Position numbers and translations under genes: made by a program
Shown: in pieces, positions 49,952 through 63,396 of the stretch
Layout: every line of letters begins with the position of its first letter
Position numbering within the stretch: position 1 is the first letter of the stretch
Assembly (NCBI GenBank): GCA_000993565.1
Contig: LBWK01000001.1
Coordinates: 84,869-148,868, forward strand
DNA length: 64,000 bases
Direction: 5' to 3'
Origin: a candidate division WS6 bacterium GW2011_GWF2_39_15
GTDB lineage: Bacteria; Patescibacteriota; Dojkabacteria; SC72
The notes under the pieces: model-generated
Databases searched by the model: none
What the model was told of the DNA's origin: nothing
The model's input: only the letters and a program-made list of their open reading frames with translations

Positions 49952-50626
49952 ATGTATAAAAATATTATCTTTGATTTTGACGGTACTCTCAATGACTCAC
50001 GCGATTTCACTATCGCTACATTTGTGGGAATAATGAAGGAGAGAATAAAGAGAAACTTTAATCATTATTTAAGTAAAGATAAAAGAGAAATACTCCAAGA
50101 AGTACGAACACTCACATTCAGGACACTCAAAGAACGCTTCAAACTCAACCTGATTACCTTTCTCAAAACCAATATCCGAATACAGGAATTAGAATATCAG
50201 TTCCTAGTAAATAATAGTAAAGAGACAGTACTAAAGGAACTTCCTTTCTACAACGGAATGATTGAACTTACTGAAGAGCTAAAAAAACAAGGAAGAAATA
50301 TATATATACTCTCCTCAAATAAAGCTAAGGTAATTAAATACATGCTTAAACTAATTGGAAAAGAAGATCTCTTTATAGATATAAATGGAGAAACCAGCCT
50401 TTTTGGAAAGGAAATGAAACTTAGAACATTTATGTCCAAACACAAAATGAAAAAGGAAGATACAATTTATATAGGTGATGAATCAAGAGATGCATATGCT
50501 TCTAAAAAGGTCGGTATTTCAATAGCCTCTGTGACATGGGGATATGCAAATACTAAAGTGCTCCAACTTGAAAAACCTACTTACATTTGTGAGAGTGTAA
50601 AAGAATTAAGAAAAATTCTCCTCTAA
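49952..50626 (+). CDS. HAD-superfamily hydrolase (phosphoglycolate-phosphatase-like)
   Basis: 224 aa. Motif I is IIFDFDGTLNDS, motif II is LSSN, and C-terminal GDESRD is motif IV. Confidence 0.6.
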   Translation: MYKNIIFDFDGTLNDSRDFTIATFVGIMKERIKRNFNHYLSKDKREILQEVRTLTFRTLKERFKLNLITFLKTNIRIQELEYQFLVNNSKETVLKELPFYNGMIELTEELKKQGRNIYILSSNKAKVIKYMLKLIGKEDLFIDINGETSLFGKEMKLRTFMSKHKMKKEDTIYIGDESRDAYASKKVGISIASVTWGYANTKVLQLEKPTYICESVKELRKILL

Positions 50627-50657
50627 GCTTGATTTCAAAACTAAAACAATCGGGAAC

Positions 50658-50734
50658 TGGTCGGGGAGACAGGACTTGAACCTGCGGCCTCTGCGTCCCA
50701 AACGCAGCGTTCTAGCCATCTGAACTACTCCCCG
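50658..50734 (-). tRNA. tRNA-Pro (anticodon TGG), CCA encoded
   Basis: The reverse complement reads cggggag-ta-gttcagatggctagaac-g-ctgcg-ttTGGga-cgcag-aggcc-gcaggttcaagtcctgt-ctccccg-a-cca. Confidence 0.8.
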
Positions 50735-50817
50735 AAATCTTCTGCATTTTAACACACTATTCTTAAAAACAAAAAGGGAGGATCACTCCTCCCTTTCCAT
50801 TAACAAAGTAAATAAGT

Positions 50818-51216
50818 TTAGAACTTATTCATCATCTGTAATGCATACTTGGAAAGAACAGGAACATCCCATCTCTCACCCTTGTATGCTTTCATAGCGG
50901 CAACAATGATAAGGATTAAGCTACCTAAGCTAAGCAAAGGCATAAGGCAAACGCTTAAAACCCCCATTATTACGTTTACAACAGGAATTAAACCTAAAAC
51001 AAACATAAGCACACCGAGACCTAAACCTGCTACAACAAGTAGTCCAAACTGAGCTGCGTAATATCTTACAAAAAGATCCTTCTTCTCTACGAAGAAAACA
51101 ACTGCACCAACAATTGGGATGCAGGACAAAGCTGCCATAAGAGCATTATCTTTATTGAACTTAATATCGTTCAATGATACTTGTCTTACAGCGTCCTTTA
51201 CGGTAGTTTCTGCCAT
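50818..51216 (-). CDS. Hypothetical membrane protein (DUF4870-like)
   Basis: 132 aa. An N-terminal soluble segment precedes ALSCIPIVGAVVFFV...YYAAQFGLLVVAGLGLGVLMFV, a pattern typical of the small DUF4870/TM2-like family. Confidence 0.4.
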   Translation of the reverse strand: MAETTVKDAVRQVSLNDIKFNKDNALMAALSCIPIVGAVVFFVEKKDLFVRYYAAQFGLLVVAGLGLGVLMFVLGLIPVVNVIMGVLSVCLMPLLSLGSLILIIVAAMKAYKGERWDVPVLSKYALQMMNKF

Positions 51217-51320
51217 TTAAAGTAATATAATATATTAATCTCCATAGTATAGAAGAGAAGTGGTCAATAAATCAATAGACAAATTTTTTACTACAAGATG
51301 TTGAAATATATCTCCGAGAG

Positions 51321-51335
51321 GTATACTATGTATAC
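51321..51335 (+). promoter_or_regulatory. Candidate operator: GTATAC-tat-GTATAC inverted repeat 24 nt upstream of lexA
   Basis: The 15-bp element is built of two self-complementary GTATAC hexamers. It is followed by two direct copies of ATTAATATAT (51337..51346 and 51351..51360) flanking the lexA start codon. Confidence 0.25.
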
Positions 51336-51358
51336 ATTAATATATTAGCCATTAATAT

Positions 51359-51994
51359 ATGAACCAATATTTAACAGAAAAACAGGTTAGGGTGTTAACA
51401 ACTATCAGGGACTTTTTCCTTGAGAATGGTTACGCTCCATCTCTAAGTGAGTTGCAATTAATGCTAAGTATTAATACCAAAAGGGGAGTAGTAAATCATT
51501 TGGAATCACTCGAAAAGAAGGGATATATTATTAGAACAAGTGAACCAAGAGGTATTAAGCTTGTTGAGGAGGAGGAGTATGAATATATGATCGGAATTCC
51601 CATACTCGGATATGCCAATGCCGGCCAGCCCCTCGCAATTGCAGAGGAGGATAGACTGGGTCTGCTTCACGTAGACAAGTCTCTACTTAGTCATAAATCA
51701 AACCTTTTTGCCCTAATTGTCACCGGTGACTCAATGAACCAAAGGAATATCGAAGGGAAACCAATGAGCGATGGAAGCTATATTATTGTTTCAAAGGATA
51801 GTGATGTAACCAACGGCGACGCAGTAGTTGCAGTCTTAGACAACTCTGCGACCGTAAAATCCTATAAGAAATCTGATGACATGATAATACTATACCCGGA
51901 GTCTGATAATCCCAAACATCAACCTATATACCTTGATCAGTTCAGTAACAGTTTAATTAATGGTAAAGTTATAAAAGTACTTGAAAGACCATAA
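51359..51994 (+). CDS. lexA: LexA repressor (S24 peptidase)
   Basis: 211 aa. The N-terminal wHTH is LTEKQVRVLTTIRDFFLENGYAPSLSELQLMLSINTKRGVVNHLESLEKKGYI. A linker with AG..PLAI follows. The S24 domain has GDSM (Ser) and VVAVLDNSATVK (Lys). Confidence 0.75.
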   Translation: MNQYLTEKQVRVLTTIRDFFLENGYAPSLSELQLMLSINTKRGVVNHLESLEKKGYIIRTSEPRGIKLVEEEEYEYMIGIPILGYANAGQPLAIAEEDRLGLLHVDKSLLSHKSNLFALIVTGDSMNQRNIEGKPMSDGSYIIVSKDSDVTNGDAVVAVLDNSATVKSYKKSDDMIILYPESDNPKHQPIYLDQFSNSLINGKVIKVLERP

Positions 51995-51997
51995 CAA

Positions 51998-52537
51998 ATG
52001 GCTTCAGTGTTGGAGATATACAAGGGTAATAAATATGTAAAGCTAGTCATAATACTTAGACTGCTCGGATATCTCGTTATCCCCTTTAAACCTCTTGAAG
52101 GGATCTTGCTTTCTATGTTTTTGGATTGTGTTGACTGGTGGATCCTAAGCTGGGGAGGTATACCTAAAAGAATGTACCATGTTTTGGATAAACCTTTGGA
52201 TTACATTCAATACCTAGTTATGCTTATACCTCTTTTTCACACCCCAATATTTCCTGCATATGCACTTCTTTTATTATGGAGGACAATTGGGCTAATAATC
52301 TACACAAAAAAACATAGCAACAAAATATTTGCCCTCTTTCCAAATGTCGCCGAATTGCTAGCGCTAATATACCTGATTTCCGAGAAATTCAACCTTAATA
52401 TAAACGTCCTGGATTTTAAAATTTTGTTCCTCCTCCTTGTAATCAAAGTAATACAAGAGTTTTGGCTACACTATTTTTCCAGAGGAGTAACCTACCAGTG
52501 GATCTATAACTTGAGAAAAATATTGTCGCAGAAATAG
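51998..52537 (+). CDS. Hypothetical polytopic membrane protein co-transcribed with lexA
   Basis: 179 aa with 4-5 TM. It starts 3 nt after the lexA stop. No motif found. Confidence 0.4.
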   Translation: MASVLEIYKGNKYVKLVIILRLLGYLVIPFKPLEGILLSMFLDCVDWWILSWGGIPKRMYHVLDKPLDYIQYLVMLIPLFHTPIFPAYALLLLWRTIGLIIYTKKHSNKIFALFPNVAELLALIYLISEKFNLNINVLDFKILFLLLVIKVIQEFWLHYFSRGVTYQWIYNLRKILSQK

Positions 52538-52559
52538 TAATGTAGTATTATTACTCAGC

Positions 52560-53543
52560 TTGAATTATCAATCTCGGATGATGGATATAAACACAGATAA
52601 CATTCTAATTGGCGATACAATTTATATCTCAGGACACAAGAAGCCTGACCTAGATGCAGTCGTCTCAGCATATTCATACCAGATATATAGACACGCCAGG
52701 GGTGACTTCAACTATATAGCAATTAGATCTGATGATGTAAATGCAGTTACAAAATGGATTTTCAATCACTTCAAGCTGGATATCCCAATGCTAATTAGAG
52801 ATGTAAGCGGGAAGAAACTTGTACTTGTTGATCATACAGATCCCGTACAAAGGCCAGATGGATGGGAAAGAGCTGAGATTATTGAAGTCGTAGACCACCA
52901 CAACCTCAAACTTGAAACAACAGTACCTCCAAAGATAACTATAAGACCATACGGATCAACCTCTACGCTTGTAGGACAGAAATTGATACAGGCCAATGTT
53001 AAAATCCAACCCAATGTTGCAGGCCTTATGCTCGCAGCGATTATCGATGACACTCTTGCTCTTAGGTCGCCAATAACAACGTATGTCGACAGATCTATTG
53101 CCGGACAGCTATCTGCAATTGCAGGTATCTCCGACATATCCTCGTTTGCCCGCGAACTCTTTGATCATAAAGATATATGGCTCAAGCTGAAAGCAAACCA
53201 GATTATAAATACTGACATTAAAGAATTCGATGCAAATGGTACATCTGTTGTTATAACACAAGTAGAAACCATGGATAACCAAAAACTTTCAAAAAAAGAA
53301 CCCGAACTCGTTCTGGAACTTAAAAAACTAAACCGAACACAGCCTAAGGACATTAGAATTGTTATGCTGACTGATCTTCTCAGAAATGATTGTATTATCC
53401 TTGCGGATGGGAACAAAGCACAGGATCTAGAGAAAATTTTCGGGACTCAACTTGAGAAAGGAAATAGAATGTACCTTCCAGGGGTCCTTTCAAGAAAAAA
53501 GCAAGTTCTTCCTCCAATACTTGATTATTATACTAAGATATAA
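52560..53543 (+). CDS. ppaC: DHH-family phosphoesterase, family-II (Mn-dependent) inorganic pyrophosphatase-like
   Basis: 327 aa. GHKKPDLDAVVSAYSY is DHH motif I, VLVDHTD is motif II, and EVVDHHN is the DHH motif III. LMLAAIIDDTLALRSPITT resembles PpaC LMLSAIISDSLLFKSPTCT. Confidence 0.6.
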   Translation: MNYQSRMMDINTDNILIGDTIYISGHKKPDLDAVVSAYSYQIYRHARGDFNYIAIRSDDVNAVTKWIFNHFKLDIPMLIRDVSGKKLVLVDHTDPVQRPDGWERAEIIEVVDHHNLKLETTVPPKITIRPYGSTSTLVGQKLIQANVKIQPNVAGLMLAAIIDDTLALRSPITTYVDRSIAGQLSAIAGISDISSFARELFDHKDIWLKLKANQIINTDIKEFDANGTSVVITQVETMDNQKLSKKEPELVLELKKLNRTQPKDIRIVMLTDLLRNDCIILADGNKAQDLEKIFGTQLEKGNRMYLPGVLSRKKQVLPPILDYYTKI

Positions 53544-53576
53544 CCAACAAGTGAAAAAAGTGATAGTATATTCAAT

Positions 53577-54308
53577 ATGAACCTTCTGACAGTAACAGAC
53601 CTGACGAAAAAGTACAAAGATTTCAAGGCAGTAAACAGCATTTCATTCAGTATACCTAAGGGAGAGATATTCGCCCTTATCGGTCCAAACGGGGCAGGCA
53701 AATCAACCACGCTAAAGATCATCGCAACAATACTTCAACCGACATCAGGTAAAATAACTCTTGAAAATAAAGACTTCAAAAATATGCGCGATGATGTACG
53801 AAAAATGATTACGTACCTTCCAGAAGAAGCAGGTGCATATAAAAACATGAAAGGAATTGACTATCTAAACTTTATGGCACAGCTCTACAGCACCAGTAAA
53901 GCAGAGGCGACAGAAGCTATAAAATTTGCCCGCGAGTTATCAGACTTAGGCAACAAACTGAGAGATAAAATATCCACATATAGCAAAGGGATGACGAGAA
54001 AACTCCTCTTAGCAAGAGCTCTAATGTCAAAACCTAAATTGGCAATTCTAGATGAGCCCACAAGCGGTCTTGATGTAATTAACGCTTTACACATAAGAAG
54101 AACAATTAAACAAATGAGCAAATTAGGGATGACTGTACTACTTTCTTCCCATAACATGCTTGAAATAGAGTTTCTGTCAGATAGAGTTGCAATTATCGAT
54201 AAGGGTGAAATCATTGAGATCGGAGAACCAAATGAGTTGATGAAAAAACATAATGCGAAGAATCTTGAAGAAGTATTTTCTAATTTAACACAAAAACAGA
54301 ATGAGTAA
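53577..54308 (+). CDS. ABC transporter ATP-binding protein (ABC-2 type)
   Basis: 243 aa. Walker A is GPNGAGKSTTLKII, the signature-like motif is YSKGMTRKLLLARAL, and Walker B is ILDEPTSGLD. Confidence 0.8.
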   Translation: MNLLTVTDLTKKYKDFKAVNSISFSIPKGEIFALIGPNGAGKSTTLKIIATILQPTSGKITLENKDFKNMRDDVRKMITYLPEEAGAYKNMKGIDYLNFMAQLYSTSKAEATEAIKFARELSDLGNKLRDKISTYSKGMTRKLLLARALMSKPKLAILDEPTSGLDVINALHIRRTIKQMSKLGMTVLLSSHNMLEIEFLSDRVAIIDKGEIIEIGEPNELMKKHNAKNLEEVFSNLTQKQNE

Positions 54309-55548
54309 GTTTTGGGTTTTGCTTAAAAAGGAGGTCAAAGAGCTACTCACTCCACAAATGATTGTTCCCTTCATTGCAATGGTTGTTGTCTTCATGCTTA
54401 TGGGAAATATCATAGGCAACGAGACTGAAAAGCAAACTTCGCAAAAGGTTCAAATTGTTTTTACTGATAACGATAAGACACCGTCCAGTAACACAATCAA
54501 ACAATCAATGGAAGCGGCCGGATATGAAATAACTACCAAAAGTTCAGCACAATCACATGTGGTAATACCACAAAACTTTGAAAGTGATTTAAAGGCTCAA
54601 AAACAACCAACCATTGAAATAATCACTAAGTTAGATAATCTTTCCATTGTAAACAATGTCAATACACAACGAACAGCACAAATAGGAACACTCATTAATG
54701 AATTAACGGCAAACATTGTTCTACAATCCAAGCTAAAACCAAATGATATAGCCTTTTCAAAGCAACCAGTAAAAATATCCGATACAGTTAAATTCAACAA
54801 CAAAATGGCACAAATCACGGTCGGAGAAATCTTCGGTTACCTATTATCACAATCAACCGTTGTACCAATTGTCCTCTTTTTGGTTATAACACTAGCTTCG
54901 CAATTAGTTGCAACAGCAATCGCATCCGAAAAAGAAAACAAAACATTAGAGACTTTACTATCAATACCTATCAGCAGGAAATCTATTGTGGCTGCTAAGC
55001 TAATGGCAAGTGGAGTAGTTTCATTCTTTATTTCTATCCTATACCTATACGGAATGAAATCATACATGGGAGGTTTGACATCCACAGCAACACAAAGTCT
55101 AGACCAGAGCAAGGTACAGGAAGCTATTCAGCAATTGGGCCTAAATATGGGAGCAACGGATTATGCACTTCTCGGACTCAGTCTGTTCCTCGGAATAATG
55201 GTTGCACTTTCATTCGCTTTTATATTAGGAACTTTTGTTGAAGATATAAAGTCTGTACAAGGTGCAATAACTCCATTAATGGTAATGTTGCTTATCCCAT
55301 ATGTCCTAACTCTGCTACTCGACATTTCAACTCTAGCCTTGCCCGTCAAAATGCTTGTATATGCAATACCCTTCACACACACCTTTACGGCGATGAATAA
55401 TATTACATTAGGAAGATTCCCTGAGCTCTACGCAGGGATGGCGTATATGCTTGTAATTGTCATAGTGGGTATAATTGTCGCAAGCAAACTCTTTTCTTCA
55501 GAGAAGATATTTACATTCAAGCTTAACTTTTTCAAGAAGAGTGCATAA
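54301..55548 (+). CDS. ABC-2-type transporter permease
   Basis: 415 aa. TM1 is followed by a 150-aa extracytoplasmic loop and five C-terminal TMs. It overlaps the ATPase gene by 8 nt. Confidence 0.6.
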   Translation: MSKFWVLLKKEVKELLTPQMIVPFIAMVVVFMLMGNIIGNETEKQTSQKVQIVFTDNDKTPSSNTIKQSMEAAGYEITTKSSAQSHVVIPQNFESDLKAQKQPTIEIITKLDNLSIVNNVNTQRTAQIGTLINELTANIVLQSKLKPNDIAFSKQPVKISDTVKFNNKMAQITVGEIFGYLLSQSTVVPIVLFLVITLASQLVATAIASEKENKTLETLLSIPISRKSIVAAKLMASGVVSFFISILYLYGMKSYMGGLTSTATQSLDQSKVQEAIQQLGLNMGATDYALLGLSLFLGIMVALSFAFILGTFVEDIKSVQGAITPLMVMLLIPYVLTLLLDISTLALPVKMLVYAIPFTHTFTAMNNITLGRFPELYAGMAYMLVIVIVGIIVASKLFSSEKIFTFKLNFFKKSA

Positions 55549-55609
55549 AATAGCGTTTACACCAATACTCGTTTCCTATACACTAGGATATTATTCATAA
55601 TATGCTGAC

Positions 55610-56932
55610 ATGCAAAAGATATACCGATTTCCTACAAACTTTCTCTGGGGGGCAAGTACAGCTGCACATCAAATAGAAGGAGACTGTACAAATGATTGGA
55701 GTGTATGGGAAAAGAAAAATGCCCAACGACTTGCAAAACAGGCCATACGGATATATAGACACCTTCCCAAATGGGATAGATTAAAGGAACAGGCACAGAA
55801 TCCTGCGAATTATATTTCAGGGAAATCAATTGACGGTTATAACCGTTACAGGGAGGATATGAACCTTCTCAAAGATATTGGGCTTAATTCGTACAGGTTC
55901 TCAATCGAATGGTCCAGAATCGAGCCAGAAGAGGGAGCATATGACGAAAAGGAGATTCAGCACTATCTGGAACAGCTGGAGTATATTAAATCAAAAGGGA
56001 TTGCAACAGTTGTTACTATCTGGCACTGGACAATTCCAACCTGGCTTGCAAATAAAAAAGGAGTTTTGTATCCAAACTTTCAAAAATCCTTTGTTGCTTT
56101 TGCAACTTTATTGGCAAAACGGCTTGGGAAGTATGTAGACTACTGGATTACACTCAATGAACCAGATGTTTATACAATGCAATCTTATCTGCAAGGTTTC
56201 CGCCCCCCAAGAAAGAAAAACTTTCTTAAAACACTTTATATCTACTTCATTTTACTCCCCAATGTACACAATGAGACTTATGATGCTATAAAGGAAGTTC
56301 TGCCTAAAAGCAAAATAAGTCTATCAAAACAGTTTGTAGGATATACCGCTATTGGAAACACTTTTGAAAACAGACTGATTGTTTTACTTGCACAGTTCTT
56401 TACCAATGATCTTTTCATGAACAGAGTCAAATCACATTTGGATTTTGTAGGAATTAATCATTACTTTACAACCAGAATAAATCTGTTTAGAGTAAAAACG
56501 CTTCTATTTAAATCCGCTCTAAACGAGTTCAAATATCTAGATCCACAAAATCGCATCTATTCGGATTTCGGGTGGGAACTTTACCCTAAAAGCCTTTATC
56601 TTGCTCTGAAGGATCTCAGGAAATATAAGCTTCCTGTAATGATAACGGAACACGGACTGGCGGACTCAGAAGACATTTATAGAAAGTGGTTTATAAAAGA
56701 CTCTCTCAAATACTTAGCAAAAGCTATGAACGAAGGAGTTAACGTGATCGGGTATCATCACTGGTCTCTATTAGATAACTTCGAATGGGATCAGGGCTTC
56801 TGGCCGCAGTTCGGGCTAATTGCTGTCAACAGAAAGACAATGGAGAGAAAAATAAGGAAAAGTGCCTTTACATACGGTAATATCGCGAGAAAAAATACAA
56901 TTAATCTACCTGAACATGAAGACGAAAAATAA
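55610..56932 (+). CDS. Glycoside hydrolase family 1 (beta-glucosidase-like)
   Basis: 440 aa. The N-terminal FPTNFLWGASTAAHQIEGD is the GH1 signature. TLNEPD carries the acid/base Glu and ITEHG the nucleophile Glu. Confidence 0.75.
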   Translation: MQKIYRFPTNFLWGASTAAHQIEGDCTNDWSVWEKKNAQRLAKQAIRIYRHLPKWDRLKEQAQNPANYISGKSIDGYNRYREDMNLLKDIGLNSYRFSIEWSRIEPEEGAYDEKEIQHYLEQLEYIKSKGIATVVTIWHWTIPTWLANKKGVLYPNFQKSFVAFATLLAKRLGKYVDYWITLNEPDVYTMQSYLQGFRPPRKKNFLKTLYIYFILLPNVHNETYDAIKEVLPKSKISLSKQFVGYTAIGNTFENRLIVLLAQFFTNDLFMNRVKSHLDFVGINHYFTTRINLFRVKTLLFKSALNEFKYLDPQNRIYSDFGWELYPKSLYLALKDLRKYKLPVMITEHGLADSEDIYRKWFIKDSLKYLAKAMNEGVNVIGYHHWSLLDNFEWDQGFWPQFGLIAVNRKTMERKIRKSAFTYGNIARKNTINLPEHEDEK

Positions 56933-57686
56933 AGAGTATTCCATCAAGGACTACGTGCTCGAGTATATGTTTATAACTCGTACCGGGCGACTCATCAGTT
57001 TCTCATACATTGTTATTGGAGTTTTCCTTCTCGGAGGCTACCAAGCCATAAATTATAATTACGGAAAACTCTTTGAAACGTTCCTGTTTGCTGGAGTTTT
57101 AGCTTATGGAGGTGTTTATGCCTTTAATAAATATACCGATTACACTGAGGACCAAAAGGTAGAGTACAAGTCAAAGAAAAGCAAAATTTTTGAAATATTC
57201 AGCAGAGACGATACTCTAGTTATTGCAATAGTAAATATGCTCTTAGGTTCAGTTCTGACACATCTCTTTTTACCTCAAATATTTGTTACAACCATTTCGC
57301 TTATTACCATTAATATAATATATTCCATTTACCTCAAGAAGTTTAATAGGCTTCTTGCCGTACTTCTAATATCAACAACCGGCCCACTGAAATTACTAAT
57401 TGGTATGCAGATTATAGGAGGTTCGCTAGAGCCGATTATTCCTATCCTCTTTACACATTTTTCGCTTTCCCTTGCCGTGCATATCTATAAACAACAACTA
57501 AAAGGATACCTAACGGACCAATGGTATAACCGAGTTCAAGTAGTCATCCTATGTCTTGTGCTAGTTTTCAGTTTATATATCTATACAGTACTTCAAAACA
57601 TAGTTCCTCTACTTTTTTCAATCATTGGAATTTCATCATGGACAATTTTCAGATATACTGGGTTTAAGAAAATATTTTTGCACTAA
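56916..57686 (+). CDS. UbiA-like prenyltransferase-family membrane protein (tentative)
   Basis: Polytopic. NKYTDYTEDQK resembles the UbiA NxxxDxxxD motif. The start is ambiguous (56862, 56916 or 56964) and the gene overlaps the end of the GH1 gene. Confidence 0.35.
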   Translation: MKTKNKEYSIKDYVLEYMFITRTGRLISFSYIVIGVFLLGGYQAINYNYGKLFETFLFAGVLAYGGVYAFNKYTDYTEDQKVEYKSKKSKIFEIFSRDDTLVIAIVNMLLGSVLTHLFLPQIFVTTISLITINIIYSIYLKKFNRLLAVLLISTTGPLKLLIGMQIIGGSLEPIIPILFTHFSLSLAVHIYKQQLKGYLTDQWYNRVQVVILCLVLVFSLYIYTVLQNIVPLLFSIIGISSWTIFRYTGFKKIFLH

Positions 57687-57693
57687 AATTATA

Positions 57694-58374
57694 ATGTCTC
57701 TTAGATCATGCTTGAGTAGATTTAAAGAAGAAAAGCTGCCATTCTCGCACCAGTCATATTCAACACTCAAACTTGGTGCCAGAGAAATAGTCCTTTCGGA
57801 AATCATGCATACAATTGATAATGATACTGAAAGGAGAATCCGCAGAAGAGAATATATTGTAGATAAGGCTAAATATGCGACGGTCCTTTATGACAAGACT
57901 GGTAAATCAATAACCACAAGCATAATCCGCGACCTTTTTCACAACATTGGTTTTAATACCGATACAGTGTTTGGTGAGCCGCACAATGCCGATGTAACAT
58001 GCACGGCTAATATAGGTGGCTATATATTTCCATTCTGGAGAAGTTTTATATACCTCATAAATAAAAGTTCCCCCACTAGAATTCTGCTGACTCAGCGTTT
58101 AGGACCGGGAAGGAAAAGACTCCATGTCAGGCTTTTCAACAGCGATGACGGCTCATGGATAGTAATCACACATGTGGACCATTCCAACTGGTTCAATTTT
58201 CTCGACCCTATACAATCTGTCAAATCCCATTTCGTGAAAGCGACAGGTGACTATGAACTAGGAAACAAAATGCTGGAAAGCATAATTACACAGACGTTGC
58301 GAAACTTTGATAATCAGAAGCATCTCCATTTAGACATTAACCAGATATATTTAGACAATGTTAAACAAATCTGA
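57694..58374 (+). CDS. Hypothetical protein upstream of and overlapping the DUF2779 gene
   Basis: About 226 aa from MSLRSCLSRF. Features include HNADVTCTANIGGY and ..SWIVITHVDHSNWF, with no motif I can assign. The first 23 codons of the ORF-track call overlap the preceding gene and are probably not coding. Confidence 0.35.
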   Translation: MSLRSCLSRFKEEKLPFSHQSYSTLKLGAREIVLSEIMHTIDNDTERRIRRREYIVDKAKYATVLYDKTGKSITTSIIRDLFHNIGFNTDTVFGEPHNADVTCTANIGGYIFPFWRSFIYLINKSSPTRILLTQRLGPGRKRLHVRLFNSDDGSWIVITHVDHSNWFNFLDPIQSVKSHFVKATGDYELGNKMLESIITQTLRNFDNQKHLHLDINQIYLDNVKQI

Positions 58375-59755
58375 ATTCCTAATATTTCTTGATTCGCCTC
58401 TACACTTCTGGGCCTACAAGCACGGTCTGTATACAAGTCCAAAAAGTGAACTTGCGGAACAGTTCAAACGACAGGGATATGATGTTGAAACTTGTGTCGC
58501 GGAGTATTTTCGAGCATTAATTCCACAAGGAGTAATAGAGCAAAAAACCTTTTTTACAAAGGAGCTCGAATGCAGAACGGATTTTCTTGTTTACGATGAA
58601 GGAACCAATTCATACGACCTTTATGAGGTTAAAAGCAGCACTGATGTTAAGCTGGATCACGAGTATGACATACTATTCCAATACATTGTAGCTTCCCAGA
58701 CAATCACAATCCGAAATCTTTACATTGTATATCTGAATAAGGAGTATGAAAGGGGAGCAGTACTGGATTTCGAACAACTCTTTAAAATCCGAGATGTTAC
58801 AGATCTCATTACAACTAGAAATGACGAAGTCGAAAGATTAATAAATGATGCCTTGAATATTGCAACAAAGGATTCGCCTGATGGCTTACTCGAGTGTTTC
58901 AAACCTAAAAACTGTCCCTGCCCCCAGCTTTGTTTTCCACTGCTGCCTGAATACTCAATCTACAGTCTTTCAAATTGCAGTGAGAAAATGACTCGAGAAC
59001 TCCGTGCTTCTGGAATCCTTGATATTAACGATATTCCCGACTCATTTAATCTAAGCCATAAACAAAGAATCCAGCTGATTTCTACAAAGCTTAAAAGCCC
59101 TGTAATTGATACACAAAGAATTGCAGAATTCATATCTAGAATTCAATTTCCGCTTCATTTTCTTGACTACGAGTCATATTCCTGGTCTATACCCCAATAC
59201 AATCGACATAGGGTTTATGAGAATGTCGTCTTTCAATATTCATTACATATTCAAAAGACAAGGAACAGCACATTAGATCACCACGAGTACCTTGCAATCA
59301 CCACAGATGATCCAATTAAGCTAATTGCAAAAGACATTACTGAAAAGATTAATGGCTCCGGAAGCATCCTTGTATGGAACAAAGATTTCGAGAAACGATG
59401 TAATAGAGACATGGCAAGAATATACCCGGAATATAGAGAGAAACTCTATAGTATTAATGAAAGGATTATAGATTTAGGAGATATCTTCAGTAAGCAAATG
59501 TATGTAGATTACAGATTCAAGGGTAGCTGGAGTATTAAAAATATACTCCCCGTATTAGTTCCAGATCTGGATTACAAGAAAATGGAGATCTCTAACGGCA
59601 CATTAGCAATGACAACATGGGAATCCATTGTGTACGGTAACCTAATCCCGCAAAAGAAAAACCTCTTAATAGATGCTTTATTAAAATACTGTGAGCTTGA
59701 TACGTACGCAATGTATAGAATACTGGAAGAAGTGATAAAGAGGCTCACTATTTAA
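58358..59755 (+). CDS. DUF2779-type protein: PD-(D/E)xK nuclease N-domain, Cys4 cluster, DEDD-like exonuclease C-domain
   Basis: 465 aa. The N-terminal TDFLVYDEG...DLYEVKSST gives D...ExK, followed by QYIV. The Cys4 cluster is CFKPKNCPCPQLC. The C-terminal FLDYESYSW (DxE), VWNKDFEKRC and ELDTYAMYRIL are DnaQ-like Exo I/II/III-like blocks. Confidence 0.5.
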   Translation: MLNKSEFLIFLDSPLHFWAYKHGLYTSPKSELAEQFKRQGYDVETCVAEYFRALIPQGVIEQKTFFTKELECRTDFLVYDEGTNSYDLYEVKSSTDVKLDHEYDILFQYIVASQTITIRNLYIVYLNKEYERGAVLDFEQLFKIRDVTDLITTRNDEVERLINDALNIATKDSPDGLLECFKPKNCPCPQLCFPLLPEYSIYSLSNCSEKMTRELRASGILDINDIPDSFNLSHKQRIQLISTKLKSPVIDTQRIAEFISRIQFPLHFLDYESYSWSIPQYNRHRVYENVVFQYSLHIQKTRNSTLDHHEYLAITTDDPIKLIAKDITEKINGSGSILVWNKDFEKRCNRDMARIYPEYREKLYSINERIIDLGDIFSKQMYVDYRFKGSWSIKNILPVLVPDLDYKKMEISNGTLAMTTWESIVYGNLIPQKKNLLIDALLKYCELDTYAMYRILEEVIKRLTI

Positions 59756-60491
59756 CTTTTTTGGAATGTACAATAGTAATAGTATCCGCTGTAACATATG
59801 ATATACCCCTCTGCCTACATCTTTGTTTCAAGCCTATTTTAAATATCCCTTCAGTTGGCGAAGTAGGACCCCTATCAGAAATAATAACTATTCTTAAACC
59901 CGTTTTTCCAAGATCTGTTTCGGAATGAACTTGTTTAAACCAATCTATTAGAGGATCATATTTACTTACACTAGAAGGATACCTACTCTTAAGAACATAG
60001 AAAGTAAATGCATCACTGAGAAGGTATGGTACTAATCTATCCATTTTTTGAAAAACCTCAAGAGACATACCTCGTTCACTAAGACGATCTTTAATTTGTG
60101 CAATTAAATATCCGCTATTGAAAAGGTGTGACCTTTCATCGCGATTAGTAACTATAGCCATTGCACCTTCGAAGAGAGCATCTAACTCCACCAGGGCGTC
60201 TAAGTTAAGTTCGGGGACTAATTCATCATCTGGAAGCATCTGCTTTACTAAGGATTCAAATGAACTTCTAAGGGCACCGATCGGCAATTGGTGAATAAAG
60301 CCAACCAAATTGGCCGTGATCGTCATGTCAGCATCAATTAAAAGTACTGGAGTGTATCCGTCATGAGACTCACTTAAAATATTTATAGCTGAGTCTTTGG
60401 CCTCAGGAAGACTTCCTACCTTAAGTTTAACTTCTAGAGGGCGTTTTTCGTTTTCCTTTGAATTTGTGGCTACCCACTGGAAATCCGACAT
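59748..60491 (-). CDS. Hypothetical protein with HAD-like motif I (tentative)
   Basis: 247 aa. VLLIDADMTIT fits DxDxT, and AIVTNRDE could be motif II. It is convergent with the DUF2779 gene and overlaps it by 8 nt. Confidence 0.3.
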   Translation of the reverse strand: MSDFQWVATNSKENEKRPLEVKLKVGSLPEAKDSAINILSESHDGYTPVLLIDADMTITANLVGFIHQLPIGALRSSFESLVKQMLPDDELVPELNLDALVELDALFEGAMAIVTNRDERSHLFNSGYLIAQIKDRLSERGMSLEVFQKMDRLVPYLLSDAFTFYVLKSRYPSSVSKYDPLIDWFKQVHSETDLGKTGLRIVIISDRGPTSPTEGIFKIGLKQRCRQRGISYVTADTITIVHSKKVK

Positions 60492-60667
60492 AAATTTGCA
60501 AATGATTTAAGGGTTAAGATTCTACCCTAAAATTCCCTCCTTGCCAACCAAAAAGGCACAAAATATAACCGATAATTTTACATATAGAGTATATACTACA
60601 GGCGGTTTCCTTCAAAAAGCCTCTTATGATATGATAAAGAGAGACATACCATCAAATATGAGTAAAA

Positions 60668-61387
60668 ATGAGAAAACCTATAGACCTTCACAACCTCTTA
60701 AAGGGGAAAATAGGGGATTTCAGAGTCAAAGAGTCTGTTGATACGAAAAAGCTATATCTACCTCCTGGAGAGTACTTAGAGGGACGTAAAATGCCACATC
60801 CTGCGGTCACAGTAACTCAAAAGAAACAGTATATGTCATCAAACTATCTCCAATCCGGCTGCTCGATCGTTGCAATAGATTATATTGCTGATATAAAACA
60901 GGTAAAAATACCTATAAAGGAGATCGAACAGATAGCAACAAAATATGGCTTCGGATACTATGGAATTAGTGACAGCGGTATTGTAGATACGCTTAAGGAC
61001 ATTGGTATTGAGTCAAGAATTGAATACATGAGAGACGGGAACCAGCTATCCACTCTCTTTCCTGATAATTACTTAATTGCAAGCATCTGGGCAAATTACC
61101 GTAAGCCTAGACTCGCATTTAAACTTGATTCGCAAGAGTGGGATGGGGGACACTATGTAGTCTTTACCGATACATTTGAATATAACAACAAAAGATACTT
61201 CTACACAGTTGATGAGTCCGAAATAGACAGTGACAGCAGATGGGGATATAGTGGGATTGGAATAAACGGGTACGAACATATCCGGTACACTTATACAAAC
61301 CAAAGGACGGCATCAATTAATATATCCGGTATATGTCTCGGAAATACTACCTGGACGGCCGGCTTGGTAATTGTAATTAAGAAGTAA
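60668..61387 (+). CDS. Papain-like cysteine peptidase, C39-like (Peptidase_C39_2) domain protein
   Basis: 239 aa. SNYLQSGCSIVAIDYI supplies the Gln/Cys nucleophile context as in C39. GGHYVVF supplies the catalytic His. No ABC exporter domain is fused. Confidence 0.45.
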   Translation: MRKPIDLHNLLKGKIGDFRVKESVDTKKLYLPPGEYLEGRKMPHPAVTVTQKKQYMSSNYLQSGCSIVAIDYIADIKQVKIPIKEIEQIATKYGFGYYGISDSGIVDTLKDIGIESRIEYMRDGNQLSTLFPDNYLIASIWANYRKPRLAFKLDSQEWDGGHYVVFTDTFEYNNKRYFYTVDESEIDSDSRWGYSGIGINGYEHIRYTYTNQRTASINISGICLGNTTWTAGLVIVIKK

Positions 61388-61394
61388 CAAATAC

Positions 61395-62069
61395 ATGCTT
61401 AAAATCAATCTATCTGAAATAGAGGTCGGTAAAAAGCTCCTTCTCAGAAATATTGTCTTAAATATTTCACCCGGGACAATAACCATCTTAACAGGTTCAA
61501 ATGGGGCAGGGAAAAGCACAATAGCAAAAGCCATAATGGGTAACCCCGACATTAAAACCGTAGGGGAGATATACATAGATGATTCCAATATAACAGCGTT
61601 TAATCCATATCTGAGAGCTCAAAAAGGAATTTATCTTTCACACCAAAACCCTATAGGTATAAATGGAATAAAGCTGGGTACATTTCTCCGCACTACATAT
61701 ATGCAGATGGAGTATATTAAGAGAAAAACAGACTTACTAACTTTTCGTAAAACAACAAAGTCTCTTTGCAAAGAGTTAGGACTCAGTACAGACATCCTCG
61801 AGAGGGATCTCAATGTCGGATACTCTGGAGGAGAAATGAAAAAAGTAGAGTTTCTTCAGCTCCTGCTTCTCAGTCCTAAATACGCAATTCTGGATGAAAT
61901 TGATTCAGGTTTGGACGCAATATCCCGCAAAAGGATCTTCAAATACCTCAGTGACCTTGTACAGAAAGGACTTGGGGTACTCCTAATCACACACAGGGAA
62001 AACATAGACAAAGAATTAAAAGTCGTACAAACATACAAATTGGAAAATAAAACTCTTACAAATGTATAA
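61395..62069 (+). CDS. sufC: Fe-S cluster assembly ATPase SufC
   Basis: 224 aa. GSNGAGKSTIAKAIMGNPDIKTVGEIYIDD...GIYLSHQNPIGINGI matches the SufC-specific pattern around Walker A. LDEIDSGLD is Walker B. Confidence 0.8.
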   Translation: MLKINLSEIEVGKKLLLRNIVLNISPGTITILTGSNGAGKSTIAKAIMGNPDIKTVGEIYIDDSNITAFNPYLRAQKGIYLSHQNPIGINGIKLGTFLRTTYMQMEYIKRKTDLLTFRKTTKSLCKELGLSTDILERDLNVGYSGGEMKKVEFLQLLLLSPKYAILDEIDSGLDAISRKRIFKYLSDLVQKGLGVLLITHRENIDKELKVVQTYKLENKTLTNV

Positions 62070-63396
62070 GTATCCTTTAAGCGAACAGACTATTCATGAA
62101 ATATCAGAAATAAAAGAAGAACCCTTGTGGGTTCTGAATAAACGACTTGAAGCATATAAAATTTTTCTTCAAAAGCCTTTACCTACATGGGGAGTAGATT
62201 TATCAACCTTAGATTTCACACAAATACAATACTTCACTCCAACTCAAAGTACTAAACATAAATGGTCTGATGTCCCAGAAGGAATTATAAAAGATTTTGA
62301 AAGGATAGGAGTTCCTGGTAGAGAACGAAAGTACTTGGCCGGCGTATCTACACAGTATGACTCGGGGGTTATATATCACAGACTAAAAGACCGCTTCTCC
62401 AAATATGGAATTATTTTTGAAAGTATTGAGAACGGACTGAAGATGTATCCTGAACTATTTAAGAAGTATTTTGGTACTTTAATAACCAGTGAAGATAATA
62501 AGTTTGCCGCCTTAAACACTGCTTTTTGGAGCGGGGGTAGTTTCGTTTATATCCCAAAAGGAATAAACCTGGAAATACCAATTGAAACATACTTTAGAAT
62601 TAATGCAAAAGCGTTGGGACAGTTTGAACGCACCCTCATCATTGCAGATAAAGGATCCTTTGTACACTACATAGAAGGATGTACTGCTCCGCAATACTTG
62701 GAATCATCACTTCACAGTGCTGTAGTTGAAATATTTGCCATGAAAGGAGCAACGGTTAAATATACCACTCTCCAAAACTGGTCAAAGAATGTCTACAATT
62801 TAGTTACCAAACGTGCCCTAACAGAGGAGAATGCCCATGTTGAGTGGGTTGACTGCAATATAGGTTCCCGTTATACGATGAAATACCCTTCCGTCGTGCT
62901 TAAGGGCGACAATTCAAGTGGGAAACTCATCTCCTTAGCTCTAGCATCAGAGAATCAAAACATTGATAGTGGAGGAAAAATGATACACATTGGTAGAGGG
63001 ACGAAAAGCACAATCATTTCCAAAACAATATGTCAGAAAGGTGGCACATCAACATATAGAGGGCTAAGCAAAATCACTCCTAATGCATTTAACTCCCGTG
63101 CCTATATTGACTGCGAATCACTACTCCTTGATTCAGACTCCCTGTCACAATCTCTTCCTACGGATGAGGTGAAAAATAATAGCTCAATATTGGAACATGA
63201 GGCTTTTGTATCAAGTATTTCCAAATCCCAGCTTTACTATTTAATGTCAAAGGGTTATACATCAGAACAGGCACGAGATCTGATTGTCCAAGGATTTGCC
63301 AGTTCAGTCCTCGATCTTCTACCTTGGGAATACTCAGTGGAATTAGAAAGGATTCTTTTTCATTTTTCAAAGGAGGAAGAAAATGAAAAGAACTAA
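62062..63396 (+). CDS. sufB: Fe-S cluster assembly protein SufB
   Basis: 444 aa. It has the SufB/SufD beta-helix core with conserved C-terminal blocks. It sits immediately after sufC with an 8-nt overlap. Confidence 0.75.
   Translation: MYKYPLSEQTIHEISEIKEEPLWVLNKRLEAYKIFLQKPLPTWGVDLSTLDFTQIQYFTPTQSTKHKWSDVPEGIIKDFERIGVPGRERKYLAGVSTQYDSGVIYHRLKDRFSKYGIIFESIENGLKMYPELFKKYFGTLITSEDNKFAALNTAFWSGGSFVYIPKGINLEIPIETYFRINAKALGQFERTLIIADKGSFVHYIEGCTAPQYLESSLHSAVVEIFAMKGATVKYTTLQNWSKNVYNLVTKRALTEENAHVEWVDCNIGSRYTMKYPSVVLKGDNSSGKLISLALASENQNIDSGGKMIHIGRGTKSTIISKTICQKGGTSTYRGLSKITPNAFNSRAYIDCESLLLDSDSLSQSLPTDEVKNNSSILEHEAFVSSISKSQLYYLMSKGYTSEQARDLIVQGFASSVLDLLPWEYSVELERILFHFSKEEENEKN

What the first reader, a model, noticed from the sequence alone, without database searches (positions are those of the whole stretch)
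57694..59755. DUF2779-type predicted dual nuclease (PD-(D/E)xK, Cys4 cluster, DnaQ-like exonuclease) with an overlapping upstream partner gene
The 465-aa protein combines three elements:
- an N-terminal restriction-endonuclease-like core (TDFLVYD ... DLYEVKSST, i.e. D...ExK, then QYIV);
- a CFKPKNCPCPQLC four-Cys cluster reminiscent of Cas4/AddB Fe-S or Zn modules;
- a C-terminal region with DxE (FLDYESYSW), a central acidic block (VWNKDFEKRC) and a Yx3D-like block (ELDTYAMYRIL) resembling 3'-5' exonuclease motifs.

Its function is unknown. Its start overlaps by 17 nt a 226-aa hypothetical gene with a conserved His-rich block (ITHVDHSNW), which suggests a two-gene unit. The combination resembles components of nucleic-acid defence or repair systems.
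Basis: partly seen in the sequence, partly recalled or inferred. Interest (0 to 1): 0.6.

Follow-up and report, generated by a model that had tools for sequence, protein, structure and literature searches.

The report
Known DUF2779 dual nuclease, no partner
The 465-aa gene is an ordinary member of the widespread but biochemically untested DUF2779 family, a fusion of a Cas4-like nuclease and a proofreading-type exonuclease that is already described in the literature. The overlapping upstream gene is an unrelated rare orphan, not a partner.

Summary
Two real genes, of 226 aa and 465 aa, overlap by 17 nt in a Dojkabacteria (WS6, CPR) genome.

- Pfam DUF2779 matches at E 5e-38.
- The AlphaFold model is confident (pLDDT 95).
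- D75, E90, K92, D270, E272, E345, Y444 and D448 are invariant in 83 homologues from many phyla.

This architecture is already published (NAR 2014; mSphere 2026), so the finding is not new.

The 4-Cys block is conserved only in the window's clade. Elsewhere it is C-x-C-x7-H-C, three Cys, or absent. It lacks the Cas4 arrangement.

The two-gene unit is refuted.
- None of 84 other DUF2779 loci holds the upstream gene.
- None of 7 other loci with the upstream gene holds DUF2779.
- A close relative has DUF2779 directly after the DHH gene, so the orphan lies in a 4.8-kb block present only in this genome.

The most likely role is stand-alone DNA-end processing or repair. This is inferred, not shown.

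The parts
58358..59755 (+). DUF2779 gene (465 aa). It is 100% identical to the GenBank protein UT34_C0001G0146 of candidate division WS6 bacterium GW2011_GWF2_39_15.
   Evidence: ORF. Pfam PF11074 matches residues 267-392, E 4.8e-38, 130.7 bits against a cutoff of 23.3. Identity to P0001. AF2 model pLDDT 95.1, pTM 0.89.
58358..58942 (+). N-terminal Cas4/RecB-like PD-(D/E)xK nuclease domain (about residues 1-195). Invariant catalytic residues: D75 (58580-58582), E90 (58625-58627), K92 (58631-58633). Q108 is also invariant.
58895..58933 (+). Four-Cys module C180-x5-C186-x-C188-x3-C192 at the end of the PD-(D/E)xK domain. It is a presumed structural metal site (Zn or Fe-S, undetermined).
   Evidence: Conserved 100/100/92/100% in 120 homologues of at least 38% identity. 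Across 83 wider homologues the module is C-x5-C-x-C-x3-C (23), C-x-C-x8-C with a His before the last Cys (25), C-x5-C-x5-C (8), absent (7), or other. There is no conserved N-terminal Cys.
58943..59149 (+). Helical linker region (about residues 196-264) with conserved L196, P197, S200, I201, L215, F230 and Q236.
   Evidence: Secondary structure of the model. Conservation. Its role is unknown. A DNA-binding role is only an inference.
59150..59755 (+). C-terminal DEDDy (DnaQ-like) 3'-5' exonuclease domain. Motifs: ExoI D270/E272 (59165-59173), ExoII N341-x2-F344-E345 (E345 at 59390-59392), ExoIII Y444-x3-D448 (59687-59701). Q293, D372, K394 and C445 are also invariant.
57694..58374 (+). Orphan 226-aa gene (UT34_C0001G0145). 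It belongs to a rare, unannotated family with invariant R142, H144, H160, H179 and G190. It is not a conserved partner of DUF2779.
58358..58374 (+). 17-nt overlap between the stop of the orphan gene (TGA 58372-58374) and the start of the DUF2779 gene (ATG 58358).
   Evidence: Sequence read. The adjacency is seen in no other locus examined.
53544..58357 (+). About 4.8-kb block of five genes (ABC ATPase, ABC-2 permease, GH1 glycosidase, UbiA-like prenyltransferase, orphan 226-aa gene). It lies between the DHH/DHHA2 gene and DUF2779 in this genome but is absent from a close relative.
   Evidence: tblastx synteny: L003 1-3944 matches window 49967-53537, and L003 4001-5377 matches window 58358-59734. 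In L003 the DHH gene ends 44 nt before DUF2779. Pfam assignments.

Best explanation
The 465-aa ORF is a typical stand-alone member of the DUF2779 (PF11074) family. It is one polypeptide that joins three parts:
- a Cas4/RecB-type PD-(D/E)xK nuclease (D75, E90-x-K92) capped by a small Cys-rich metal module;
- a helical linker;
- a DEDDy DnaQ-like 3'-5' exonuclease (D270, E272, E345, Y444-x3-D448).

Shown here: family membership, both folds, the invariance of both catalytic sets, the lack of any conserved neighbour, and the absence of the upstream gene from other DUF2779 loci.

Inferred: the protein is a divalent-metal-dependent DNA-end-processing enzyme.
- The Cas4-like domain would act on 5' ends or flaps and the DEDDy domain on 3' ends.
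- One protein could then trim or degrade both strands of a DNA end.
- It would serve chromosomal repair, recombination or clearance of linear DNA in a streamlined CPR genome.
- The Cys module would be structural rather than catalytic, because some clades lack it.

The upstream 226-aa gene is an unrelated, rare, lineage-specific orphan. It arrived with, or survived in, a 4.8-kb variable block. Its 17-nt overlap reflects tight gene packing and probable co-transcription, not a functional pair.

The confidence given (0.6) is for the whole statement. The architecture and the 'no partner' parts are about 0.9. The DNA-end-processing or repair role is about 0.4.
For: Family and folds:
- Pfam DUF2779 at 130.7 bits.
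- AF2 pLDDT 95.1.
- PF01930 and PF13482 hit some homologues.
- The catalytic residues are invariant in 83 of 83 sequences spanning Patescibacteria, Chloroflexota, Acidobacteriota, Bacteroidota, Planctomycetota and Proteobacteria.

Literature:
- DUF2779 is placed in the 3'-5' exonuclease clade and noted to co-occur with DUF83/PD-(D/E)xK (PMC3985635).
- MMSYN1_0389 is described as a Cas4-like + DEDD(y) fusion and is quasi-essential in JCVI-syn3.0 (PMC13621843).
- An M. bovis DUF2779 transposon mutant is growth-deficient in cell culture, in the same screen as replication and recombination mutants (PMC7373297).

No partner:
- 141 immediate neighbours from about 75 loci fall into 125 Pfam families. 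No family occurs more than 5 times.
- All-against-all clustering finds no conserved flanking gene.
- The orphan is absent from 84 loci, and DUF2779 is absent from the orphan's 7 other loci.
- Synteny with L003 shows the 4.8-kb block is present only here.

Mainly chromosomal:
- 2 partial hits in 50,697 phage records and 29 hits in 72,556 plasmids.

Repair hint:
- In the close relative L003 the order is lexA, a hypothetical gene, the DHH gene, then DUF2779, all co-directional with gaps of 4-44 nt. The same order holds here, interrupted by the block.
Against: - No member of the family has been assayed. Substrate (DNA or RNA), polarity and biological role are all inferred from folds and motifs.
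- DEDD domains are often RNases.
- A minority of family members lie in ATPase/helicase clusters that look like defence or plasmid-maintenance systems. Examples are SIR2-HerA in L046, a helicase/AAA_13 cluster in L058, and the Arcobacter and Planktothrix plasmids. A defence role is therefore not excluded for the family.
- The lexA linkage is seen only in this lineage. The candidate LexA box occurs only upstream of lexA.
- A genome-specific interaction between the orphan and the nuclease cannot be excluded by comparative data alone.
Confidence: 0.6

Rival explanations
1. The orphan 226-aa protein and the DUF2779 nuclease form a two-gene functional unit, for example nuclease plus regulator, inhibitor or specificity factor.
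For: The two genes are on the same strand with a 17-nt overlap, which is compatible with co-transcription and translational coupling. The orphan is a well-folded protein (pLDDT 92) with an invariant Arg/His set that suggests a real activity.
Against: - The orphan is absent from 84 other DUF2779 loci within +/-5 kb.
- DUF2779 is absent from all 7 other orphan-family loci.
- The close relative L003 has DUF2779 directly after the DHH gene, with no orphan.
- The orphan's only recurrent neighbour is a YdjM-like membrane protein, in 3 of 7 loci.
- The orphan family has 44 representatives. DUF2779 has more than 2,800 hits.
- Short overlaps are common in compact genomes (general knowledge).
Confidence: 0.04
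2. The DUF2779 protein is an anti-phage or anti-plasmid defence nuclease, a 'solo Cas4'-like effector that destroys invading linear DNA.
For: - The N-terminal domain has a Cas4-like fold.
- Some family members sit next to SIR2-HerA (L046), next to helicase/AAA_13/SF1-helicase genes (L058), and in ATPase/helicase/PLD clusters on plasmids.
- The mSphere paper files MMSYN1_0389 under 'immunity-related'.
Against: - This gene and its closest relatives have housekeeping or variable neighbours.
- There is no CRISPR array in the window.
- The window protein matches no PADLOC model other than the weak Cas4 hits.
- The gene is retained in very small CPR and Mollicute genomes and is quasi-essential in phage-free syn3.0 culture. 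The authors take this to mean a role beyond immunity.
- It is nearly absent from phage genomes.
Confidence: 0.2
3. The protein is a nucleic-acid turnover or salvage enzyme, or an RNA-processing enzyme. It would degrade DNA or RNA to short oligonucleotides and nucleotides for organisms that cannot make nucleotides de novo.
For: - The family is abundant in Patescibacteria and present in Mollicutes.
- The M. bovis DUF2779 mutant came from the same cell-culture growth screen as the nanoRNase NrnA and GdpP mutants.
- Many DEDD domains are RNases (established knowledge; hits to ERI1, RNase D and ISG20).
Against: - The family is also common in free-living Chloroflexota, Acidobacteriota, Saprospiraceae and Rhodobacteraceae.
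- The best structural matches are DNA enzymes: polymerase proofreading domains, ExoI, MrfB, TREX1, Cas4, MGME1 and Dna2.
- The adjacent DHH/DHHA2 protein has the domain pair typical of family II pyrophosphatases rather than NrnA. This is an inference from the domain pair.
Confidence: 0.15

Closest known systems
Pfam PF11074 / DUF2779 family (RNase H-like superfamily family F.17 of Majorek et al. 2014; e.g. MMSYN1_0389 of JCVI-syn3.0 and Mbov_0804 of M. bovis)
   Same: A full-length Pfam hit well above threshold, and the same Cas4-like + DEDDy two-nuclease architecture. The same invariant D/E/K and D/E/E/Y/D residues are present. Like the rest of the family, it has never been characterised experimentally.
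   Different: The Mollicute proteins are longer (about 650 aa, NCBIfam UU173_fam). The window protein scores only 45.6 bits against that model's cutoff of 225. MMSYN1_0389 keeps only 2 Cys, while this clade has a compact 4-Cys module.
Cas4 (PF01930; SSO0001 4IC1, Pcal_0546 4R5Q, Cas4-Cas1 7MI4) and related RecB-family nucleases (AddB, Dna2, EXO5, MGME1)
   Different: - No cas1, cas2 or CRISPR array in the window.
- The window protein does not reach the Pfam Cas4 model.
- The Cys spacing is C-x5-C-x-C-x3-C with no N-terminal ligand, unlike the 'C...C-x2-C-x5-C' arrangement. The Cas4 pattern is from my own knowledge and.
- The domain is fused to a second nuclease.
DEDD (DnaQ-like) 3'-5' exonucleases, DEDDy subgroup (proofreading domains of family A/B polymerases; also ExoI, Pol III epsilon, MrfB, TREX1)
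   Different: - The ExoII acid is Glu, not Asp.
- Additional family-specific invariant residues are present (Q293, D372, K394, C445).
- There is no polymerase or helicase domain.
- Profile-to-sequence comparison with E. coli epsilon finds nothing, so the relationship is visible only at the level of fold and motifs.
COG2251 / PF13482 'RecB-family nuclease + RNase H-like' proteins (family F.13 of Majorek et al.)
   Same: The same combination of a DUF83/PD-(D/E)xK module with a DnaQ-like RNase H-fold module in one protein. PF13482 weakly hits 8 of 55 DUF2779 homologues.
   Different: It is a different Pfam family. COG2251 proteins often carry tandem AAA domains, which this protein lacks.

Membership tests
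Pfam PF11074 (DUF2779) | HMM score above the gathering threshold | tested here: met
   130.7 bits against 23.3, E 4.8e-38, covering profile positions 1-126 of 126. All 55 aligned homologues also match.
Pfam PF11074 (DUF2779) | Full-length two-domain architecture shared with family members | tested here: met
   96-100% query coverage in the 120 listed homologues. tblastn covers residues 1-2 to 455-465 in most of the 80 loci returned from the genome collection.
NCBIfam NF045869 (UU173 family, Mollicute subfamily) | Score above the curated cutoff | tested here: not met
   45.6 bits against a cutoff of 225. The protein is related to this subfamily but is not a member.
Cas4 / RecB-like PD-(D/E)xK nucleases | Catalytic D ... 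E-x-K triad, conserved | tested here: met
   D75, E90 and K92 are invariant in 83 of 83 sequences.
Cas4 / RecB-like PD-(D/E)xK nucleases | Restriction-endonuclease-like fold matching solved Cas4 structures | tested here: met
   [not shown]
Cas4 / RecB-like PD-(D/E)xK nucleases | Match to the Cas4 sequence model (PF01930) | tested here: not met
   The window protein has no PF01930 hit at E <= 1. The PADLOC Cas4 model matches only at E 0.001. PF01930 hits 4 of 55 homologues.
Cas4 / RecB-like PD-(D/E)xK nucleases | Fe-S 'iron staple' ligands: one N-terminal Cys plus C-x2-C-x5-C | tested here: not met
   The pattern is C-x5-C-x-C-x3-C with no conserved N-terminal Cys. The identity of the metal is not testable with these tools.
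Cas4 as a CRISPR adaptation component | Genomic association with cas1/cas2 or a CRISPR array | tested here: not met
   The genes from 51359 to 63396 are lexA, a hypothetical membrane-like protein, DHH, ABC transporter genes, GH1, UbiA, hypothetical genes and ABC-ATPase/Suf-like genes (the last label is my reading of the translations). The 64-kb window has no repeat array.
DEDD (DnaQ-like) 3'-5' exonucleases, DEDDy type | ExoI DxE, ExoII acidic residue and ExoIII Y-x3-D, conserved | tested here: met
   D270, E272, E345, Y444 and D448 are invariant in 83 of 83 sequences. The ExoII acid is Glu.
DEDD (DnaQ-like) 3'-5' exonucleases, DEDDy type | RNase H-like exonuclease fold | tested here: met
   [not shown]
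DEDD (DnaQ-like) 3'-5' exonucleases, DEDDy type | 3'-5' exonuclease activity | not testable with these tools
   No biochemical data exist for any DUF2779 protein in the literature searched.
   0 of 84 DUF2779 loci carry the orphan. 0 of 7 orphan loci carry DUF2779.
Known anti-phage defence systems (PADLOC-DB v2) | Match to a system-specific model, plus system partner genes nearby | tested here: not met
   Only weak Cas4/Cas4b hits for the nuclease and none for its neighbours in the window. Defence-like ATPases flank only a minority of homologues.

The most novel reading that the evidence does not exclude
DUF2779 may be the main bidirectional DNA-end resection and repair nuclease of genome-reduced bacteria (CPR/Patescibacteria, Mollicutes) and others. 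A single polypeptide would use a Cas4-like 5' nuclease and a DEDDy 3'-5' exonuclease to do what RecBCD, AddAB or RecJ+ExoI do elsewhere. In this Dojkabacteria lineage it would be transcribed in a lexA-headed gene string. That would explain why the gene is quasi-essential in the minimal cell JCVI-syn3.0.
Probability: 0.25. Interest if true: 0.6.

Novelty: already known. Interest (0 to 1): 0.3.

Why it matters
DUF2779 is a large family: more than 2,800 clusters were hit here, and at least 547 stretches matched in one-genome-per-species data. It is found across many phyla and is quasi-essential in the synthetic minimal cell, yet no member has been assayed.

This window's copy adds no new kind of system. 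The comparative work does sharpen what to test:
- Both active sites are invariant.
- The Cys/metal module is dispensable and interchangeable between clades.
- The protein is usually solo, so it can be studied alone.
- A minority of copies sit in ATPase/helicase islands and on plasmids.

The claimed partner gene is a red herring for the nuclease. It does belong to a rare family that is predicted with confidence, has no structural match and carries an invariant Arg/His set.

Tried and rejected
- Sequence searches of the nuclease against the PDB, as a single sequence and as a profile, found nothing. Only fold comparison worked.
- hhalign of the family profile against E. coli Pol III epsilon gave no alignment. 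I recalled that sequence from memory and verified it as 1j53. Residue equivalences therefore rest on motif position and secondary structure, not on an alignment.
- The search for related loci with the orphan-family alignments failed, because there was no stretch conserved enough. I used the look-up of encoding contigs instead.
- The word-index search recovered only 5 members of the orphan family.
- The afdb50 fold library was unavailable, so the orphan model was compared only with the PDB.
- The promoter and terminator scan was no better than shuffled sequence.
- A search for a second copy of the lexA-upstream palindrome near DUF2779 found none.
- I considered a link between DUF2779 and the DHH gene, which are adjacent in L003. 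I rejected it as general, because DHH occurs next to DUF2779 only in L003 and the window lineage.
- I considered the 125-126-aa genes upstream of DUF2779 in L002, L004 and L005 as alternative partners. I rejected this because they are unrelated to each other: a cupin versus a membrane-anchored protein.
- No model coordinates were available, so distances between the Cys residues and C445 or H16 could not be measured.
Full report
**1. What is there**

The window comes from candidate division WS6 (Dojkabacteria, CPR) bacterium GW2011_GWF2_39_15. The two products are 100% identical to UT34_C0001G0145 and UT34_C0001G0146.

- The ORF list confirms a 465-aa gene at 58358-59755 (+).
- It also confirms a 226-aa gene at 57694-58374 (+), counted from its ATG. 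The open frame extends back to a TTG at 57625.
- The stop of the first gene (TGA 58372-58374) lies 17 nt inside the second.
- Alignments with homologues support both start codons.
- Both genes sit at the end of a co-directional, tightly packed run. The order is lexA (51359-51994), a 179-aa hypothetical, DHH/DHHA2, ABC ATPase, ABC-2 permease, GH1 glycosidase, a UbiA-like protein, the orphan, then DUF2779.
- A convergent 247-aa hypothetical gene overlaps the 3' end by 8 nt.

**2. The 465-aa protein**

Sequence-model matches:
- Pfam gives DUF2779 (PF11074) over residues 267-392, E 4.8e-38.
- NCBIfam gives only a sub-threshold match to the Mollicute UU173 subfamily.
- PADLOC gives a weak Cas4 match over residues 14-194.

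Structure:
- An AlphaFold2 model built on 55 homologues is very confident (pLDDT 95.1, pTM 0.89).
- Foldseek against the PDB ranks Cas4 Pcal_0546, EXO5, SSO0001, the DinG exonuclease domain, ACE1 and MGME1 first.
- A few homologues reach PF01930 (Cas4; 4 of 55) and PF13482 (RNase_H_2; 8 of 55) on their own.

Conservation:
- I aligned 83 full-length homologues of 32-56% identity. They come from Patescibacteria, Chloroflexota, Acidobacteriota, Bacteroidota, Planctomycetota and Proteobacteria.
- D75, E90, K92, Q108, D270, E272, E345, D372, K394, Y444, C445 and D448 are invariant.
- The motifs sit where they should in each fold. D75 is at the start of the second core strand and E90-x-K92 on the next strand. 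DxE lies on the first strand of the exonuclease domain. N341-x2-F-E345 starts the helix after the fourth strand. Y444-x3-D448 lies in the last helix.
The ExoII acid is E345, not D343.

**3. The Cys cluster**

- Among 120 homologues of at least 38% identity, C180, C186 and C192 are 100% conserved and C188 is 92% conserved.
- In the broader set the module changes. I counted 23 with C-x5-C-x-C-x3-C and 25 with C-x-C-x8-C, where a His precedes the last Cys (a CCHC-like set). A further 8 have C-x5-C-x5-C, 7 have no Cys and carry a different motif instead, and the rest have minor variants.
- There is no conserved N-terminal Cys.
- The module is therefore a replaceable and dispensable structural metal site at the same position as the Cas4 cluster. 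It does not have the Cas4/AddB ligand arrangement.
- Whether it binds Zn or Fe-S cannot be decided here.

**4. The supposed partner**

- The 226-aa protein matches nothing in Pfam, NCBIfam, PADLOC or PHROGs, and nothing in the PDB by sequence or by profile.
- An exhaustive phmmer search found only 44 representatives in 1.84 billion proteins. It is a real but rare family.
- Invariant residues are R142, H144, H160, H179 and G190. D100, D162, N165 and Y187 are nearly invariant.
- I retrieved seven other loci that carry a homologue (L001, L006, L007, L008, L091, L092, L093). None contains DUF2779 (tblastn found none).
- Conversely, 84 other DUF2779 loci with up to 5 kb on each side contain no homologue of the orphan.
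- Upstream genes of DUF2779 in other Dojkabacteria are unrelated to it and to one another. They are a cupin, a small membrane-anchored protein and a DHH protein.
- tblastx against the close relative GCA_016182915.1 (L003; its DHH protein is 79% identical) shows collinearity up to the end of the DHH gene and again from the first codon of DUF2779.
- The five genes at about 53544-58357, including the orphan, are therefore a block present only in this genome.

**5. Context of the family**

- All-against-all clustering of ORFs from 85 loci found no flanking family shared widely.
- The 141 immediate neighbours hit 125 different Pfam families. The commonest (PheS, AAA_21) occur five times each.
- DUF2779 is thus normally a solo gene among housekeeping genes.
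- A minority lie beside defence-like ATPases: SIR2 + HerA in L046, and a ResIII helicase, AAA_13, DUF5677 and an SF1 helicase in L058.
- The gene is present on 29 of 72,556 plasmids. There it sits in ATPase/helicase clusters: AAA ATPase, ATP-binding protein, DUF2779 and a large hypothetical in Aliarcobacter pM830MA, and DEAD helicase, ATP-binding protein, DUF2779 and PLD nuclease in Planktothrix p2.
- It is essentially absent from 50,697 phage records.
- The window has no CRISPR array.

**6. Literature**

- Majorek et al. 2014 placed DUF2779 in the 3'-5' exonuclease clade of the RNase H-like superfamily. They noted its co-occurrence with DUF83/PD-(D/E)xK (PMC3985635).
- A 2026 mSphere paper describes MMSYN1_0389, a DUF2779 protein that is quasi-essential in JCVI-syn3.0, as a Cas4-like nuclease fused to a DEDD nuclease. 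It reports a Tyr in the 'h' position and only two of the four Cas4 cysteines. It concludes that the essential role must lie beyond immunity (PMC13621843).
- An M. bovis transposon mutant in the DUF2779 gene Mbov_0804 is growth-deficient with host cells (PMC7373297).
- I found no biochemical characterisation.

**7. Mechanism**

Shown here: two intact, invariant nuclease active sites of known types in one solo polypeptide.

Inferred:
- It is a metal-dependent DNA-end-processing enzyme. The Cas4-like domain attacks 5' ends or flaps and the DEDDy domain attacks 3' ends.
- It acts in repair, recombination or clearance of linear DNA.
- Retention in tiny genomes, quasi-essentiality in syn3.0 and the lexA-headed co-directional arrangement in this lineage all fit this reading.

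Rivals are a defence effector (about 0.2), nucleic-acid salvage or RNA processing (about 0.15) and a true two-gene unit with the orphan (about 0.04).

**8. Verdict**

- The domain interpretation is correct but already published.
- The partner hypothesis is refuted.
- The item is an ordinary member of a known, uncharacterised family, so interest is modest.

Noticed in passing
[not shown]
   Followed up: partly
window 51321-51335 (upstream of lexA 51359-51994); L003 about 1753-1767: A perfect GTATAC-N3-GTATAC palindrome lies just upstream of lexA. It is conserved as GTATACCATGTATAC upstream of lexA in the related Dojkabacteria genome, and it is the only exact copy in the 64-kb window. It is a candidate LexA box for this CPR lineage.
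   Followed up: partly
window 53544-58357 compared with L003 3944-4001: A 4.8-kb five-gene block (ABC ATPase, ABC-2 permease, GH1 beta-glycosidase, UbiA-like protein, orphan) interrupts the otherwise collinear string of lexA, a hypothetical gene, DHH and DUF2779 seen in a close relative. It is either an insertion here or a deletion there.
   Followed up: partly
L046 1869-8333; L058 375-9850; L089 (Aliarcobacter plasmid pM830MA); L090 (Planktothrix plasmid p2): A minority of DUF2779 genes are embedded in ATPase/helicase clusters that look like uncharacterised defence or plasmid-maintenance systems. Examples: SIR2-HerA-DUF2779; ResIII helicase-AAA_13-DUF2779-DUF5677-SF1 helicase; AAA ATPase-ATP-binding-DUF2779; DEAD helicase-ATP-binding-DUF2779-PLD nuclease.
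   Followed up: partly
window 59748-60491 (-) and 60668-61387 (+): Two further hypothetical genes (247 aa and 239 aa) lie downstream of DUF2779 and have no Pfam, NCBIfam, PADLOC or significant PHROG match. The 247-aa gene converges on DUF2779 and overlaps its end by 8 nt. It is absent from the syntenic relative L003.
   Followed up: no
DUF2779 protein residues 444-448 (window 59687-59701): An invariant Cys (C445) sits directly next to the catalytic Tyr in the Y-C-x-L-D-T ExoIII motif in 83 of 83 homologues. This is unusual for DEDDy exonucleases and its role is unknown.
   Followed up: no
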